12,228 bases of DNA from a virus. The position numbers and the translations under genes are program-made. Of the stretch, positions 2 to 6,029 are shown in pieces (positions within the stretch are counted from its first letter, which is position 1; each line of letters starts with the position of its first letter). Location of the stretch: UHGV virus genome UHGV-0278805; one strand, written 5' to 3'. Under the pieces are notes generated by a model. It was not told the DNA's origin. It searched no databases and saw nothing but the letters and a program-made list of their open reading frames with translations.

Positions 2-499
2 TTCGACATGGTAACCAGCGCACCTGAAAAATTATCCGGACAGGCTGCTGACAAGATGCAGGCTGGCGTGATTCTGCTGGACTTTATGCGCCGGGAGTTA
101 AATCTGTCTAACTCTTCAGTGCTTGGAGCCTGTCAGAAACTCCAGGAGGCTGTTGGCTTACCGAATCTGGCACCGCGCTATGCCATTGATGCTCCTGCTG
201 ACGCGCCTGATGGCTCAAGCCGCCCCACGCTGTCACTGAGTGCACTGCTGAAGCAGTATGGTATCCGCCTGACAGCTAATCAGGCATATCACCAGATGGT
301 GAAGCTGGGGATCGTCGAGCAGCGCGAACGATACAGCCGTACCGCGATTAACAACATCAAAAAATTCTGGTCGCTGACGGCGAAAGGCTGCATGTTCGGC
401 AAGAACATCACCAGTCCCGCAAATCCGCGCGAGACGCAGCCGCATTTCTTCGAATCCCGATTCCCTGAGCTGTTAAAGCTACTCGATACCGTTCATTGA
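2..499 (+). CDS. Phage early-region protein, 5'-truncated by the window edge (possibly Roi/antirepressor-like C-terminal domain)
   Basis: Reading frame is open from position 2 with no upstream stop, so the true N-terminus lies outside the window; first in-window ATG at 8; stop TGA at 497-499. Position directly upstream of the DUF968-Q pair matches the lambdoid nin/roi region. Product assignment is a weak recollection, not a recognised motif. Confidence 0.35.
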   Translation, partial: FDMVTSAPEKLSGQAADKMQAGVILLDFMRRELNLSNSSVLGACQKLQEAVGLPNLAPRYAIDAPADAPDGSSRPTLSLSALLKQYGIRLTANQAYHQMVKLGIVEQRERYSRTAINNIKKFWSLTAKGCMFGKNITSPANPRETQPHFFESRFPELLKLLDTVH

Positions 500-1496: not shown

Positions 1497-1513
1497 TTTT
1501 GTGGAGAAATTTG

Positions 1514-1879
1514 ATGCGTGATATTCAGATCATCCTTGAACGTTGGGGGGCATGGGCAGCTAGTGATAGCTCAGGAGTGGACTATTCGCCTATAGCTGCT
1601 GGGTTTAAGGGACTTCTTCCCTATACCAGTAAGGCACGCCAAGCTTGTTCAGATAATGATGCGCTAATTATTGAAAGTTGCTTGGAGCAACTAAAAAAAA
1701 GAAAACCTTATGAGCATTCTCTACTGGTTGCGCATTATTTGTACGGGTTTTCAAAGCGGAAGATTGCCAAAGTACAAGGAAAGGATGAGAAATTAATCCG
1801 TATAGAAATATTGTTAGCAGAGGGATTCATTGATGGTTGCCTTTCTACTCTCGATATTCATTTAGATATGGAGTTATAA
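1514..1879 (+). CDS. Q: Late-gene antitermination protein Q (phage 21/82-type, QuuD/QuuQ-like)
   Basis: ATG at 1514 preceded by GGAG at 1503-1506; stop TAA 1877-1879. Translation MRDIQIILERWGAWAA...IAAGFKGLL...LSTLDIHLDMEL closely resembles remembered DLP12/Qin Q-like antiterminators. The track start at 1499 is a TTG read-in; the ATG with an RBS is preferred. Confidence 0.8.
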   Translation: MRDIQIILERWGAWAASDSSGVDYSPIAAGFKGLLPYTSKARQACSDNDALIIESCLEQLKKRKPYEHSLLVAHYLYGFSKRKIAKVQGKDEKLIRIEILLAEGFIDGCLSTLDIHLDMEL

Positions 1880-1888
1880 TAAAAATAA

Positions 1889-1913
1889 CCCCGTAAACTT
1901 TATGTTTACGGGG
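1889..1913. terminator. Bidirectional intrinsic terminator between convergent Q and the TIR-like gene
   Basis: Perfect 10-bp stem CCCCGTAAAC (1889-1898) / GTTTACGGGG (1904-1913) with 5-nt loop, flanked by an A-run upstream (AATAAAAATAA) and a T-run downstream (TTATTTCTTTTTTTT), so it reads as a hairpin plus U-tract on either strand. Confidence 0.6.
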
Positions 1914-1918
1914 GAAGG

Positions 1919-2734
1919 TTATTTCTTTTTTTTATTACTTTCAGATAATCGTCGGTTTAATGTGTATTTTATTTGGTTCCTAATCATTTTTTCAGGAATG
2001 TCATATTTGTCTAAGAATGATATTATTTCATCCTCGTCAAGCAATCCATTCTTTATAATTTCATCTATCTGTTTTTGTAGATACCAAACATCCTTCTGTT
2101 CTACAGGAGTTAAATTCATATGGCTATTTATGGAGTTGATAGTAGCATCACGTTCAAGAACTCTAATCCTTTGATTTAATGAACGAGTGTTTTGTAATAT
2201 TTCAGATAAAAGATCTTGTTCAGTACGTGGTTTTACTTCTTCAGTTGGAGGGTATTGATCTAAAGCTCGTTTAAAATTTTTTTCAAATTGCTCCCAGTAT
2301 GTATTAAAAACTTGCTTTAGAATACGGTCATCTAAAGATTTATCGACAAGACAATTGTTTATTGTCCTTACTAATTCCCAAACACTCTCTTTATTTGGCG
2401 TTGTGTGATTGAATTGAGCAAGTGGATCTTTTAAATCTTCTGGTTTTAAGTCAATCAAGAATGTACAAACTTTATTTGTTGAAAGTCCTTTTGCTAGTGC
2501 TCCTGTTTCAAACAAAATCCATGGTTTATTTTTATTTTCTTGTGTCAAACATACAATGCCGACAGATACATCTTTTAATTTATCATTAATTTCAGAGAAC
2601 CATATAGCGCCACGATCAATATCTCTGGTTGAAATCCATGGCTGCGAAGCTTGGATAACACACTTCAGCCAGTCGCTAATAAGTTCTGCAACAGCTTGAC
2701 TTCTTTGCCCAGACCAACTTATGAACACTTTCAT
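1919..2734 (-). CDS. TIR-like domain protein with uncharacterised C-terminal helical/charged domain (candidate anti-phage defence or abortive-infection effector)
   Basis: Minus-strand ORF; preferred start is the ATG at 2734-2732 (MKVFISWSG...), preceded by GGAG 6 nt upstream on the coding strand; the track start at 2758 is a TTG. Stop TAA (plus-strand TTA 1919-1921). N-terminal ~120 aa carry TIR-like hallmarks: beta-A strand VFISWSG, then GIVCLTQEN and PWILFETGAL with a glutamate at the position of the catalytic Glu in NAD-cleaving TIR domains. C-terminal ~150 aa is K/E/D-rich with no motif I recognise. Gene is strongly AT-rich relative to its neighbours. Confidence 0.7.
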   Translation of the reverse strand: MKVFISWSGQRSQAVAELISDWLKCVIQASQPWISTRDIDRGAIWFSEINDKLKDVSVGIVCLTQENKNKPWILFETGALAKGLSTNKVCTFLIDLKPEDLKDPLAQFNHTTPNKESVWELVRTINNCLVDKSLDDRILKQVFNTYWEQFEKNFKRALDQYPPTEEVKPRTEQDLLSEILQNTRSLNQRIRVLERDATINSINSHMNLTPVEQKDVWYLQKQIDEIIKNGLLDEDEIISFLDKYDIPEKMIRNQIKYTLNRRLSESNKKKK

Positions 2735-2759
2735 TATGTACTCCATGTAATCACTCAAA

Positions 2760-2857
2760 AGGGACTGAAATTTACATTAAAAATTAAATAAAATCACTCA
2801 CGCGGTCCGCAGAAACCATTGTAATCTGTTATGAGTGGTTACTTCGCCACACAACTT
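2760..2857. promoter_or_regulatory. AT-rich intergenic region, candidate divergent promoter region (TIR-like gene leftward; possible phage late promoter pR'/qut rightward)
   Basis: About 100 bp of AT-rich DNA between the 5' end of the minus-strand TIR-like gene and a + strand terminator. A possible + strand -10 TAAAAT at 2789-2794 with a weak -35 CTGAAA at 2765-2770. Promoter hexamers are weak matches and are not experimentally anchored. Confidence 0.3.
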
Positions 2858-2884
2858 AAACCCGCCGTCGAGCGGGTTTTTTTG
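2858..2884 (+). terminator. Intrinsic terminator (candidate tR'-like terminator of a short late leader transcript)
   Basis: AAACCCGC (2858-2865) / GCGGGTTT (2872-2879) stem with 6-nt loop, followed by TTTTTGT; a classic GC stem plus U-tract on the + strand. Confidence 0.65.
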
Positions 2885-2981
2885 TACCTGTAAACCTGGT
2901 GCAGTACGGTAAACACGCTGGTGGTCGTGAATACTGACTTTTTATCTTGCTGGCTTTTTAGACAAGAGTTATTGGTATGTC

Positions 2982-3200
2982 ATGTTAACCAGAAGGAAAA
3001 AAGACATGCTAAAACAGCAAGATATGACAGAAACGGCGAAAGTTGTTTTTAATGAATTAAGCATCGAACCGGCAACAGTCGGGGAGATTGCACAAAACAC
3101 ATATCTTTCACGCGAACGCTGTCAGTTAATACTGACCCAGTTGGTTATGGCGGGGCTGGCAGATTACCAGTTCGGCTGTTACAGACGCCTTCAGCAATGA
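2982..3200 (+). CDS. Small helix-turn-helix-like protein of unknown function (possible regulator accompanying the methyltransferase)
   Basis: 72-aa ORF; alternative start ATG 3006 (MLKQQDMTETAK...) lies 9 nt after GAAGGA. Segment TVGEIAQNTYLSRERCQLILTQLVMAGL has the look of a recognition helix / winged-helix region. No strong family recognition. Confidence 0.45.
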   Translation: MLTRRKKDMLKQQDMTETAKVVFNELSIEPATVGEIAQNTYLSRERCQLILTQLVMAGLADYQFGCYRRLQQ

Positions 3201-3349
3201 AGGACTTTTAATTTGTGAAAATGGGCGGCTGGTGGGTGTTGGTAGCACCTGCCAGCCATTCGCTCATGCTTACTGGTCACAAGCGAACCACGGCCCACTG
3301 CTTTAGCGCAAAAGCAGAGTGAGCCTACCAGAGTTACGCTTACTGATCC

Positions 3350-4402
3350 ATGAAAAATACTGTAAAAATAAACAGTGTTGATTTAATCAACGCTGATTGC
3401 CTGCATTTTATTCAGTCCCTGCCTGATGATTCCATTGACCTGATTGTTACCGATCCGCCGTACTTCAAGGTGAAACCCAACGGCTGGGACAATCAGTGGA
3501 AAGGGGACGAAGATTACCTTAAGTGGCTGGACCACTGTCTGGCCCAGTTCTGGCGGGTGTTAAAACCTGCCGGAAGCCTTTACCTGTTCTGTGGGCATCG
3601 CTTGGCATCTGATATTGAGATCATGATGCGTGAACGTTTCAACGTGCTTAACCATATCATCTGGGCGAAGCCGTCCGGACGTTGGAATGGGTGTAATAAA
3701 GAAAGTCTGCGCGCATATTTTCCTGCCACAGAGCGCGTTCTGTTTGCTGAACATTACCAGGGGCCATATCGCGGCAAAAGTGACGGCTATGCGGCAAAAG
3801 AAAGGGAACTCAAACAGCACATAATGGCACCGCTGATATCGTATTTCAGGGATGCTCGTGCCGAACTGGGTATAACGGCAAAACAAATTGCCGAAGCCAC
3901 AGGTAAGAAAAATATGGTTTCCCACTGGTTTGGTGCCAGTCAGTGGCAGTTGCCGAATGAGGCTGACTATCGGAAGTTACAGGCACTGTTTTCCCGTATA
4001 GCGGCAGAGAAGTTTCAGGAACAACAACTGGAACAACCACACCACCAGCTGGTGGCATCTTATGATTCACTGAATCGCAAATATTCTGAATTGCTGGATG
4101 AGTTTAAATCTCTCCGGCGCTATTTCTCCGTATCAGTCTCCGTGCCTTATACCGATGTCTGGATGCATAAACCCGTTCAGTTCTACCCGGGTAAACATCC
4201 GTGTGAGAAACCTGCGGATATGCTCCGGCAAATAATCAATGCCAGTAGTCGACCTGGTGATCTGGTTGCTGATTTTTTTATGGGATCCGGTTCCACAATA
4301 AAAGCAGCAATGGCGCTGGGGCGTCGGGCCTTAGGTGTTGAGCTTGAGTCAGAGCGGTTTAACCAGACAGTGAAAGAGATAAACGAGCTGGTGGGGAAAT
4401 AA
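3350..4402 (+). CDS. Orphan DNA methyltransferase, beta-class N6-adenine/N4-cytosine type (YhdJ/CcrM-like architecture)
   Basis: 350-aa ORF. Motif IV DLIVTDPPY near the N-terminus and SAM-binding motif I DFFMGSGST near the C-terminus (beta-class order); HPCEKP segment parallels HPTQKP of remembered YhdJ-type enzymes. No adjacent restriction endonuclease candidate is present. Weak Shine-Dalgarno upstream of ATG 3350. Confidence 0.85.
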   Translation: MKNTVKINSVDLINADCLHFIQSLPDDSIDLIVTDPPYFKVKPNGWDNQWKGDEDYLKWLDHCLAQFWRVLKPAGSLYLFCGHRLASDIEIMMRERFNVLNHIIWAKPSGRWNGCNKESLRAYFPATERVLFAEHYQGPYRGKSDGYAAKERELKQHIMAPLISYFRDARAELGITAKQIAEATGKKNMVSHWFGASQWQLPNEADYRKLQALFSRIAAEKFQEQQLEQPHHQLVASYDSLNRKYSELLDEFKSLRRYFSVSVSVPYTDVWMHKPVQFYPGKHPCEKPADMLRQIINASSRPGDLVADFFMGSGSTIKAAMALGRRALGVELESERFNQTVKEINELVGK

Positions 4403-5666: not shown

Positions 5667-6029
5667 GTGGTTTTTACTGAGCGCGGTGTACACGGTGGAA
5701 CATATGGCGGGAAGTTTGTTGCTTATGATTATGCAGCATGGCTAAACCCCGGATTTAAATATGCAGCCTATAAAGTCCTGGATGACTACTTCACCGGAGA
5801 ACTTCAGCATCGCAACAGCTTAAGTGCGCAGCTCAATATGAAGTGTCATGAGTTTGATCAGAAAAAAGATATGGCGAGCTTCTGTGGACAAGGGCTGGCG
5901 GCATGGCGCTATACGAAGCCAGTGTTGGTCGCTGAGATTAACTCCCTGGCTAACCAGCTGCAGATAACGATCCCCGGGCTGTCCGGTATTTGCCGGTATG
6001 AAATTACCGGAAGGCGCGGTCGTTACTGA
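5667..6029 (+). CDS. Hypothetical protein with KilA-N-like segment; possibly a 5'-truncated remnant
   Basis: 120-aa ORF starting at GTG with no convincing RBS (nearest GGAG is about 16 nt upstream). Segment GTYGGKFVAYDYAAWLNPGFKYAAYKVLDDYF resembles the C-terminal half of the KilA-N consensus (GTWVHP.LA..FA.WLSP.F..W); the N-terminal half of the domain is absent. May be a gene fragment. Confidence 0.3.
   Translation: MVFTERGVHGGTYGGKFVAYDYAAWLNPGFKYAAYKVLDDYFTGELQHRNSLSAQLNMKCHEFDQKKDMASFCGQGLAAWRYTKPVLVAEINSLANQLQITIPGLSGICRYEITGRRGRY

What the first reader, a model, noticed from the sequence alone, without database searches (positions are those of the whole stretch)
1919..2734. Stand-alone TIR-like domain gene inserted opposite to the phage late genes: candidate single-gene anti-phage/abortive-infection system
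The protein begins with a TIR-like fold signature (VFISWSG beta-A strand; GIVCLTQEN; PWILFETGAL with a Glu at the position of the catalytic glutamate of NAD-cleaving TIR domains) and continues into a ~150-aa charged, probably helical C-terminal domain I cannot assign to any family. No ThsA-like, STING, SAVED or cyclase partner lies next to it, so it is not a canonical Thoeris/CBASS/Pycsar arrangement. A prophage-borne TIR effector with a novel sensor domain could act as a lysogen-protecting NADase. This is the most likely undescribed system in the window.
Basis: partly seen in the sequence, partly recalled or inferred. Interest (0 to 1): 0.85.

Follow-up and report, generated by a model that had tools for sequence, protein, structure and literature searches.

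The report
Stand-alone TIR gene in prophage cargo slot
A lambda-like prophage carries, in a slot where related prophages hold other defence-type genes, a single backwards-facing gene for a TIR-domain protein that most likely kills infected cells by destroying NAD+; this is a plausible but untested example of a known kind of anti-phage gene.

Summary
The ORF is real: 1919-2734 (-), 271 aa, RefSeq 'TIR domain-containing protein'. Residues 1-~160 form a confident TIR fold; the closest solved structures are SpbK and the SPARTA, SARM1 and plant TIR NADases. W72 and E76 are invariant in 129 homologues and align with the W and catalytic Glu of the plant 'SSWCLDEL' motif. After the TIR come a conserved long helix (172-206) and a hypervariable three-helix bundle (213-270) with no assignable fold.

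No partner gene was found in the window or conserved across 76 genomes from many phyla. The closest characterised relative (38% identity over the TIR) is the TIR component of the validated three-gene 2TM+1TM+TIR system of phage P2_AC1. Its two membrane partners are absent here.

The gene sits between Q and a conserved promoter/terminator-like element. Other E. coli prophages carry different reverse-oriented cargo in that slot, including a STAND NTPase, an 'ATP-dependent nuclease' and a HEPN/DUF262 pair.

Best reading (about 0.55): a prophage-borne single-gene abortive-infection NADase whose variable C-terminus senses a phage protein. Single-protein TIR defences are already published (SpbK; E. 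coli TIR-V, -VI, -IX), so this is a new member of a known kind. No function was tested. Interest is moderate, not 0.85.

The parts
1919..2734 (-). CDS of the 271-aa TIR-domain protein, stop codon included
   Evidence: ORF list. The RefSeq CDS in E. coli 268.2 is identical. Pfam TIR_2, PADLOC PDLC03016 and PHROG 13899 all match.
2255..2734 (-). TIR fold, residues 1-160
2507..2509 (-). Codon of Glu76, the predicted catalytic glutamate (W72-x3-E76)
   Evidence: Invariant in 129 sequences. It aligns with the E of 'SSWCLDEL' in plant TIR 7xoz. The codon was read directly from the sequence.
2117..2254 (-). Linker plus conserved long helix, residues 161-206 (helix 172-206); possible oligomerisation element
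   Evidence: Model. Conserved positions R170, E178, L180 and R184. A role in oligomerisation is inference.
1922..2116 (-). Hypervariable C-terminal three-helix bundle, residues 207-271; putative sensor
   Evidence: Identity to close homologues is 0.26 here against 0.89 in the TIR core. No PDB fold match (best E 1.6). No Pfam family.
2741..2744 (-). Shine-Dalgarno GGAG, six bases before the ATG
   Evidence: Read from the sequence.
1889..1913 (.). GC-rich hairpin between the convergent Q and TIR genes. It is an intrinsic terminator for the TIR gene and probably works in both directions.
   Evidence: Terminator scan. mEp390 annotates terminators on both strands at the equivalent place.
2745..2800 (-). 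AT-rich upstream region that must hold the gene's own promoter. The promoter was not pinpointed.
   Evidence: This part of the spacer is specific to the TIR cassette (alignment A5). No consensus-quality minus-strand promoter was found.
2780..2885 (+). Conserved ~100-bp element ending in the hairpin plus T-run at 2858-2879. It is probably the Q-specific late promoter/qut region plus tR', and it forms the right border of the cargo slot.
   Evidence: Present in 731 of 5426 E. coli genomes. Alignment A5. SfV annotates the hairpin as a terminator about 107 bp after its Q gene. Its function is inferred.
1499..1879 (+). Antiterminator Q gene, the left border of the cargo slot
   Evidence: Pfam Phage_antitermQ, E 1e-48.

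Best explanation
The gene is a prophage cargo ('moron') gene. It encodes an autonomous TIR-domain abortive-infection protein.

Proposed mechanism, all of it inferred:
1. The lysogen expresses the gene from its own promoter.
2. The protein stays inactive until its hypervariable C-terminal helical bundle binds a protein of a superinfecting phage. By analogy with SpbK and E. coli TIR-V, -VI and -IX, this is probably an assembled structural protein such as a portal or tail protein.
3. Binding drives oligomerisation through the conserved long helix and TIR-TIR contacts.
4. Oligomerisation completes the NAD+ site around Glu76.
5. NAD+ is hydrolysed, and the cell stops growing or dies before the invader completes its cycle.

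What is shown here: the fold, the invariant Glu, the lack of a partner gene, the gradient of conservation along the protein, and the position in a variable cargo slot.

What is inferred: expression in the lysogen, the trigger, oligomerisation, NADase activity and protection.
For: - TIR fold with high confidence (pLDDT 91.8). The best structural matches are NAD-cleaving TIRs: SPARTA, SpbK, SARM1, AbTir and plant TIRs.
- W72 and E76 are invariant across 129 diverse homologues. They align with the W and E of the 'WCLDEL' motif of a plant ADP-ribosyl cyclase TIR.
- No conserved neighbour in 76 genomes from many phyla. No partner in the window. The AC1 membrane partners are absent from the window and from the genome and phage loci held at that point (L001-L083).
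- Identity to close homologues falls from 0.89 in the TIR core to 0.26 in the tail, as expected for a conserved effector joined to a diversifying recognition module.
- The relative in P2_AC1 belongs to a locus shown experimentally to block lambda, LF82_P8 and P2 (PMC9122126).
- The gene is low-GC cargo (0.32 against about 0.53) with its own SD and terminator.
- It lies in a slot that in other E. coli prophages holds a Metallophos-NACHT STAND protein (PADLOC PDC-S60), an 'ATP-dependent nuclease', and a HEPN-like nuclease with a DUF262 protein and a methyltransferase.
- 66 IMG/VR viral contigs encode relatives. mEp390 carries a 59% homologue in the same slot.
- Neighbourhoods of family members include AriA/GajA/Old-like ATPases, AbiLi, Thoeris and SLATT genes, and integrases.
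- Precedent exists for single-protein TIR abortive infection triggered by portal or tail proteins (PMC11984713, PMC11350192).
Against: - Nothing functional was measured.
- In the only systematic E. coli survey, 12 of 32 cloned TIR candidates protected against a 111-phage panel (PMC11350192). The prior for any one TIR gene showing activity is therefore well below 1.
- The validated relative works in a locus with two membrane proteins. There the authors proposed signalling rather than NAD+ depletion.
- A catalytic Glu is needed for both NAD+ depletion and signal production, so it does not tell them apart.
- The sensor role of the tail rests only on its variability.
- No promoter of consensus quality was found upstream.
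Confidence: 0.55

Rival explanations
1. The protein is a signal-producing TIR, like ThsB. On sensing a phage it makes an ADPR-derived messenger that activates an effector encoded elsewhere in the host or prophage. It does not kill by NAD+ depletion itself.
For: - The closest characterised relative sits with two membrane proteins, and its authors proposed messenger signalling (PMC9122126).
- In Marinomonas (L007) a family member lies next to a ThsB-type TIR and a SLATT two-TM effector.
- In Bermanella and Thiobacillus family members lie in arrays of TIR genes.
- Among 150 neighbour ORFs, ThsA_Macro appears 2 times and SLATT 2 times.
Against: - No effector-like partner is conserved across 76 loci.
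- None is present in the window.
- The gene moves between prophages and phyla as a single unit, so dependence on an unlinked effector is unlikely.
- The AC1 partners are absent from the window and all family loci checked.
Confidence: 0.15
2. The gene is cargo with no measurable anti-phage effect under laboratory conditions. It would be a TIR protein with another, unknown cellular or phage-serving role, for example modulating the prophage's own development.
For: - 20 of 32 cloned E. coli TIR candidates showed no defence (PMC11350192).
- Most other cargo in the same slot has no recognisable function.
- No clear promoter was found.
Against: - The TIR core is very strongly conserved, with an invariant catalytic motif, across phyla.
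- The gene recurs on viral contigs and near defence genes.
- It is homologous to a component of a validated defence locus.
Confidence: 0.2
3. The protein is a virulence-type bacterial TIR, like TcpC or Btp, that interferes with animal TLR/MyD88 signalling.
For: The fold also matches the MyD88, TIRAP and IL-1R TIR domains. E. coli strains carrying the gene include human and animal isolates.
Against: - The family is spread through environmental Bacteroidota, Planctomycetota, Acidobacteriota and Firmicutes, and reaches methanogenic archaea.
- No secretion signal was noticed on reading the sequence, and no secretion-system gene appears among the window's proteins.
- The catalytic Glu is invariant.
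- The gene's context is phage or defence in every locus examined.
Confidence: 0.03

Closest known systems
TIR component of the 2TM+1TM+TIR system of P2-like phage AC1 (Rousset et al. 2022, PMC9122126; PADLOC PDLC03016 'TIR-TM')
   Same: Same TIR subfamily. The window protein scores 194 bits (E 1e-57) on the model over profile positions 1-246. It is 38% identical over residues 1-179. It shares the N-terminal TIR, the helical extension, and carriage on a prophage in a variable slot.
   Different: - AC1 has two upstream membrane-protein genes (PDLC02978, PDLC02977). These are absent from the window and from the genome and phage loci held at that point (L001-L083).
- The AC1 protein is 315 aa and has a different, longer C-terminus.
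- It scores 393 bits on the model, against 194 for the window protein.
- The host phage type (P2) and the slot differ.
SpbK of Bacillus subtilis ICEBs1 (single-protein TIR NADase activated by the SPbeta portal YonE; PMC11984713)
   Different: - Only 18% identity.
- The domain order is reversed: in SpbK the sensor is N-terminal and the TIR C-terminal.
- No SpbK model appears among the PADLOC matches up to E=1. That PADLOC v2 holds an SpbK model is from memory, not checked here.
- The non-TIR domains are unrelated.
[quoted passage not shown] 2024, PMC11350192)
   Same: Same species. They are single-gene systems in which 'only a short TIR domain' is recognised. They were validated as abortive-infection defences that need the TIR active site, with portal or tail-fibre proteins as triggers.
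   Different: Identity with any of them could not be checked. The accession list (Supplementary Data 2) is not held, and WP_024221339 occurs in no searchable paper. The window protein may be one of their 12 active clusters, one of the 20 inactive ones, or one of the 32 never cloned.
Thoeris ThsB and the TIR effectors of CBASS, Pycsar and SPARTA
   Same: TIR fold with a catalytic Glu. SPARTA TIR-APAZ is the top Foldseek hit.
   Different: No ThsA, cyclase, SAVED/STING domain, APAZ domain or Argonaute is present in the protein or the window. The PADLOC ThsB match is only E 0.018 over 30 residues.

Membership tests
TIR-domain NAD+-cleaving enzymes (superfamily) | TIR (flavodoxin-like) fold | tested here: met
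TIR-domain NAD+-cleaving enzymes (superfamily) | Catalytic glutamate on helix C, four residues after a conserved Trp | tested here: met
   W72 and E76 are invariant in 129 sequences. They align with 'WCLDEL' of 7xoz. That alignment is weak (E 0.35), so it serves as a positional check, not proof.
TIR-domain NAD+-cleaving enzymes (superfamily) | NAD+ hydrolase or cyclase activity | not testable with these tools
   This needs an enzyme assay or NAD+ measurement in vivo.
2TM+1TM+TIR system (Rst_2TM_1TM_TIR, P2_AC1) | TIR protein matching the system's TIR model | tested here: met
   PDLC03016, E 1.2e-57, 194 bits. The match is partial at the C-terminus (profile positions 1-246 of 293). AC1 itself scores 393 bits.
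2TM+1TM+TIR system (Rst_2TM_1TM_TIR, P2_AC1) | Adjacent 2TM protein (PDLC02978) | tested here: not met
   tblastn with the AC1 2TM protein finds only noise (E>1) in the window and the genome and phage loci held at that point (L001-L083). There is no PADLOC hit among the window proteins.
2TM+1TM+TIR system (Rst_2TM_1TM_TIR, P2_AC1) | Adjacent 1TM protein (PDLC02977) | tested here: not met
   Same searches. The flanking genes are Q and a small HTH-like ORF on the other strand.
Thoeris | ThsA effector (SIR2-SLOG or Macro-TM) next to the ThsB TIR gene(s) | tested here: not met
   None in the window. Only 2 of 150 neighbour ORFs across the family carry ThsA_Macro.
CBASS / Pycsar TIR effectors | Nucleotide cyclase gene, and a nucleotide-sensing domain fused to the TIR | tested here: not met
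   No such domain in the protein and no such gene in the window.
SpbK-type single-protein TIR defence | Sequence membership of the SpbK family, with an N-terminal sensor and a C-terminal TIR | tested here: not met
Single-gene TIR abortive-infection systems (functional class) | The gene alone confers phage resistance that depends on the TIR active site | not testable with these tools
   Only the absence of a conserved partner was shown.

The most novel reading that the evidence does not exclude
The ~270-aa architecture (an ultra-conserved TIR plus helix, then a hypervariable ~60-aa helical bundle) may be a very widespread minimal pattern-recognition receptor. It is found in most bacterial phyla and some archaea, with more than 3400 clusters at 50% identity. 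On this reading the tiny C-terminal bundle alone sets phage specificity. The three-gene AC1 system would then be a derived offshoot. In addition, the stretch between Q and its late promoter in lambdoid prophages would be an unrecognised defence hotspot that could be mined for new systems.
Probability: 0.25. Interest if true: 0.6.

Novelty: new member of a known kind. Interest (0 to 1): 0.4.

Why it matters
If active, this would be one of the smallest self-contained TIR immune proteins. It also belongs to a very large, cross-phylum family, so one experiment would annotate thousands of genes now labelled only 'TIR domain-containing protein'.

The sharp boundary between a near-invariant effector and a hypervariable 60-aa tail makes the family a convenient system for studying how recognition specificity is encoded and exchanged.

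Separately, the Q-to-late-promoter slot seen here may be a practical place to look for further prophage-borne defence genes in E. coli.

None of this changes current concepts. TIR NADase abortive infection and prophage defence hotspots are both established.

Tried and rejected
- NCBIfam gave no hit.
- A sequence search of the PDB with the family profile gave only coiled-coil noise. With the TIR region alone, the only TIR hit was a marginal one, to 7xoz.
- The C-terminal domain was modelled separately (pLDDT 76.7) and searched against the PDB. There was no significant match: the best E was 1.6, and the top hits were small RRE- or HTH-like helical bundles and ribosomal proteins. No fold is assigned, and a DNA-binding reading is not supported.
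- I looked for a conserved partner by clustering the three genes on either side in 76 loci, with a relaxed blastp on the nearer same-strand ones. The largest group was 3-4 related Pseudomonas loci. A partner is rejected.
- I looked for the AC1 2TM and 1TM proteins by tblastn at E<=10. None were found.
- I tried to find out whether the protein is one of Wang et al.'s TIR-V, -VI or -IX. The supplement is not held, the accession is in no paper, and no other paper uses those names. This stays unresolved.
- Brenes & Laub 2025 on prophage defence systems is not held.
- Literature searches for a prophage TIR next to an antiterminator found nothing relevant.
- The longer TTG start at 2758 was rejected. 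Homologues and RefSeq start at MKVF, and the SD precedes the ATG at 2734.
- A promoter-like site on the + strand at 1851-1880 (10 of 12 matches) was considered as the late promoter. It was set aside for two reasons. It would fire straight into the 1889-1913 hairpin. Also, the element conserved with this Q type lies at 2780-2885 instead.

Full report
**1. The observation**

The window is the late-regulatory and morphogenesis region of a lambda-like prophage. Its genes, in order, are:
- a DUF968 protein (501-1496)
- antiterminator Q (1499-1879, Pfam Phage_antitermQ, E 1e-48)
- the candidate gene on the opposite strand (1919-2734)
- a small HTH-like ORF (2982-3200)
- an orphan N6/N4 DNA methyltransferase (3350-4402)
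- a P21-type holin, a lysozyme, and Rz/Rz1
- a DUF1441 small-terminase-like protein
- the large terminase, a gpW-like protein and the portal

The candidate ORF is 271 aa. It has a GGAG six bases before the ATG at 2734. A GC-rich hairpin with T-runs lies five bases past its stop codon (1889-1913). GC content falls to 0.32 across the gene, against about 0.53 in the flanks. RefSeq annotates exactly this CDS as 'TIR domain-containing protein' WP_024221339.1.

**2. What the protein is**

Family matches:

| Library | Result |
|---|---|
| Pfam | TIR_2 passes its gathering score (31.1 bits, residues 3-97) |
| NCBIfam | nothing |
| PHROGs | phrog_13899, unknown function, E 3e-100 |
| PADLOC | PDLC03016 'TIR-TM', E 1.2e-57, over residues 1-255 |

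An AlphaFold2 model built on 129 diverse homologues is confident (mean pLDDT 91.8, pTM 0.73). It has three parts:
- A five-stranded TIR fold with its helices runs to about residue 160.
- After a short linker comes one long helix (172-206).
- The last part is a three-helix bundle (213-228, 234-244, 248-270).

W72 and E76 are among only nine invariant positions in the 129-sequence alignment. A weak phmmer alignment to the plant TIR 7xoz places them on the W and E of 'SSWCLDEL'. From established knowledge of plant and bacterial TIR NADases, that E is the catalytic glutamate.

The C-terminal 107 residues were modelled alone (pLDDT 76.7). They have no significant structural relative (best E 1.6) and no Pfam family. 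The unassigned part is about 110 aa, not about 150 aa.

**3. The family**

The family is very large:
- 2083 hits in the 90%-clustered database, nearly all 260-300 aa.
- 11271 clusters at 50% identity with E<=1e-3, of which 3401 are at E<=1e-30. These match residues 1 to about 195.
- At least 535 species-level genomes. They include Proteobacteria, Bacteroidota, Planctomycetota, Verrucomicrobiota, Acidobacteriota and Firmicutes. Two are archaeal MAGs.

Conservation is strongly graded along the protein:

| Region (residues) | Mean identity to query, close homologues |
|---|---|
| 1-115 | 0.89 |
| 116-160 | 0.65 |
| 161-200 | 0.55 |
| 201-271 | 0.26 |

Across all 128 homologues the figures are 0.66 for residues 1-115 and 0.16 for residues 201-271. 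The protein is thus a near-invariant enzyme module joined to a hypervariable tail.

**4. Stand-alone or not**

I called ORFs in 76 genomic loci and clustered the three genes on either side of the TIR gene. No neighbour family is shared beyond 3-4 closely related Pseudomonas loci. A relaxed blastp on the nearer same-strand neighbours gave the same answer.

The one characterised relative is in P2-like phage AC1. It is a 315-aa TIR protein, 38% identical over residues 1-179. It is preceded by 126-aa and 185-aa membrane proteins. PADLOC confirms that these three are its models 2TM-TIR, 1TM-TIR and TIR-TM. Rousset et al. showed that this three-gene locus protects against lambda, LF82_P8 and P2 (PMC9122126).

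Neither membrane protein has any detectable homologue in the window or in the genome and phage loci held at that point (L001-L083; tblastn at E<=10 gives noise only). PADLOC on ten other window proteins finds only the orphan methyltransferase. The window gene therefore shares the TIR subfamily but fails membership of the AC1 system, of Thoeris, of CBASS/Pycsar and of the SpbK family.

A minority of family members do sit beside other TIR genes or a SLATT two-TM effector (Marinomonas, Bermanella, Thiobacillus). This keeps a signalling role alive as a rival.

**5. Genomic setting**

Twenty-five of 5426 complete E. coli genomes carry the gene at >=99% identity, always on the chromosome. In the records inspected it lies next to the same Q gene. 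Phage mEp390 has a 59% homologue in the same place, between Q and the holins, with annotated bidirectional terminators. Sixty-six IMG/VR viral contigs encode relatives.

The 151 bp upstream of the gene contain a ~100-bp element (window ~2780-2885) that occurs in 731 E. coli genomes. This element ends in a strong + strand hairpin and T-run (2858-2879).

In every prophage inspected, the order is DUF968, short Q, reverse-oriented variable cargo, this element, then the late genes (alignment A5). In one locus (strain 6409) only the right-hand part fell within the stretch fetched. The cargo seen:

| Strain / locus | Cargo between Q and the element |
|---|---|
| this window | TIR gene |
| several strains | two-gene cassettes of unknown function |
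| 6409 (L086) | protein of at least 1050 aa, Metallophos-NACHT STAND, matching PADLOC PDC-S60 |
| SCPM-O-B-9427 (L087) | NA37-domain protein plus a 404-aa protein |
| 1435 (L158) | cytosine methyltransferase, HEPN-like nuclease and DUF262 protein |
| UTI89 (L159) | a 148-aa protein |
| EC9952 (L160) | a 483-aa 'ATP-dependent nuclease' |

SfV has a different Q. It shares only the hairpin and what follows, and its record annotates that hairpin as a terminator about 107 bp after Q.

I infer that the conserved element is the Q-specific late promoter/qut region with tR'. The cargo would then sit between Q and its own late promoter, rather than inside the late transcript. This is an inference from conservation, not a mapped promoter. 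Either way, the slot behaves like a defence/moron hotspot. That supports a defence role by association.

**6. Mechanism**

The best-supported model has these elements:
- The lysogen expresses the gene at a low level.
- The hypervariable bundle recognises a protein of an incoming phage.
- Recognition drives TIR oligomerisation, possibly helped by the conserved helix 172-206. Its hydrophobic positions 176, 179/180, 183, 186, 190 and 193 follow a heptad-like spacing.
- The assembled TIR cleaves NAD+ through Glu76.
- The infection aborts.

There are precedents for each step:
- SpbK is a 267-aa single protein whose non-TIR domain binds the SPbeta portal. Binding activates its NADase, and E192Q abolishes the activity (PMC11984713).
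- E. coli TIR-V and TIR-IX respond to portal proteins, and TIR-VI responds to a tail fibre (PMC11350192).

For this gene only the anatomy is shown. Trigger, oligomerisation, catalysis and protection are all inferred. I put this model at about 0.55.

The rivals are:
- a ThsB-like signalling TIR with an unlinked effector (0.15)
- cargo without measurable defence, or with another role (0.2). Only 12 of 32 cloned E. coli TIR candidates were active.
- a TcpC-like virulence TIR (0.03). The family's distribution in environmental bacteria and archaea contradicts this.

**7. Novelty and score**

TIR NADase abortive infection, single-protein TIR defences and prophage defence hotspots are all published. 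The protein is already labelled as TIR in RefSeq and is picked up by a PADLOC model and a PHROG. I could not determine whether it is one of the clusters tested by Wang et al..

I therefore classify it as a new member of a known kind. Some features are worth an experiment: the very large family, the minimal hypervariable tail, the stand-alone status relative to the AC1 system, and the Q-to-late-promoter cargo slot.

Noticed in passing
window 1880-2885; loci L001, L085-L090, L157-L160: The stretch between the Q stop codon and a conserved ~100-bp element is a variable cargo slot in lambdoid E. coli prophages. Ten inspected prophages hold at least eight different reverse-oriented cargos. These include a Metallophos-NACHT STAND protein (PADLOC PDC-S60), an 'ATP-dependent nuclease', a HEPN-like nuclease with DUF262 and a C5-methyltransferase, and several two-gene cassettes with no family match.
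   Followed up: partly
window 2780-2885 (+), hairpin 2858-2879: A conserved non-coding element is present in 731 of 5426 E. coli genomes. It co-occurs with the short Q type. Only the hairpin and the sequence downstream of it are shared with SfV, which has another Q and annotates the hairpin as a terminator. The element is probably the late promoter/qut plus tR'. It has not been mapped.
   Followed up: partly
window 1851-1880 (+) and 1889-1913: A strong promoter-like site (TCGATA-18-TATAAT, 10 of 12 matches) overlaps the Q stop codon. It points straight into the hairpin shared by the convergent Q and TIR genes. Its significance is unknown.
   Followed up: no
L007 6580-10395; L006 6865-9758; L009 6546-9573: Some family members lie in arrays of TIR genes.
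- Marinomonas: ThsB_TIR, a SLATT_3/SLATT_1 2TM protein, the family TIR, then a TIR_2 protein.
- Bermanella: the family TIR is flanked by TIR_2 and CAP12-PCTIR_TIR proteins.
- Thiobacillus: DUF5343, HEPN_Swt1, the family TIR, then TIR_2.
   Followed up: partly
L071 3915-4691; L080 8001-9380: Family members occur in two archaeal MAGs, Methanomicrobiales and Methanoperedens. The Methanoperedens ORF is 459 aa and so carries a much longer C-terminal part.
   Followed up: no
window 2982-4402: A module of a small HTH-like ORF (72 aa, no Pfam hit; annotated TrmB-family in phiP27) plus an orphan N6/N4 DNA methyltransferase lies between the late-promoter-like element and the holin. It is shared at 83-98% identity with SfV, phiP27, cdtI and Stx2c phages.
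   Followed up: no
window 8-499 and 5667-6029: The first ORF (163 aa) has no Pfam or PADLOC family. The 120-aa ORF after Rz carries an ORF11CD3 domain and a marginal PADLOC PDC-S22 hit (E 5e-4).
   Followed up: no
E. coli O103 ML775, NZ_CP193495.1 4138026-4138840: This copy of the TIR gene aligns as 815 bases against 816. The allele may be frameshifted, although it is annotated as intact.
   Followed up: no
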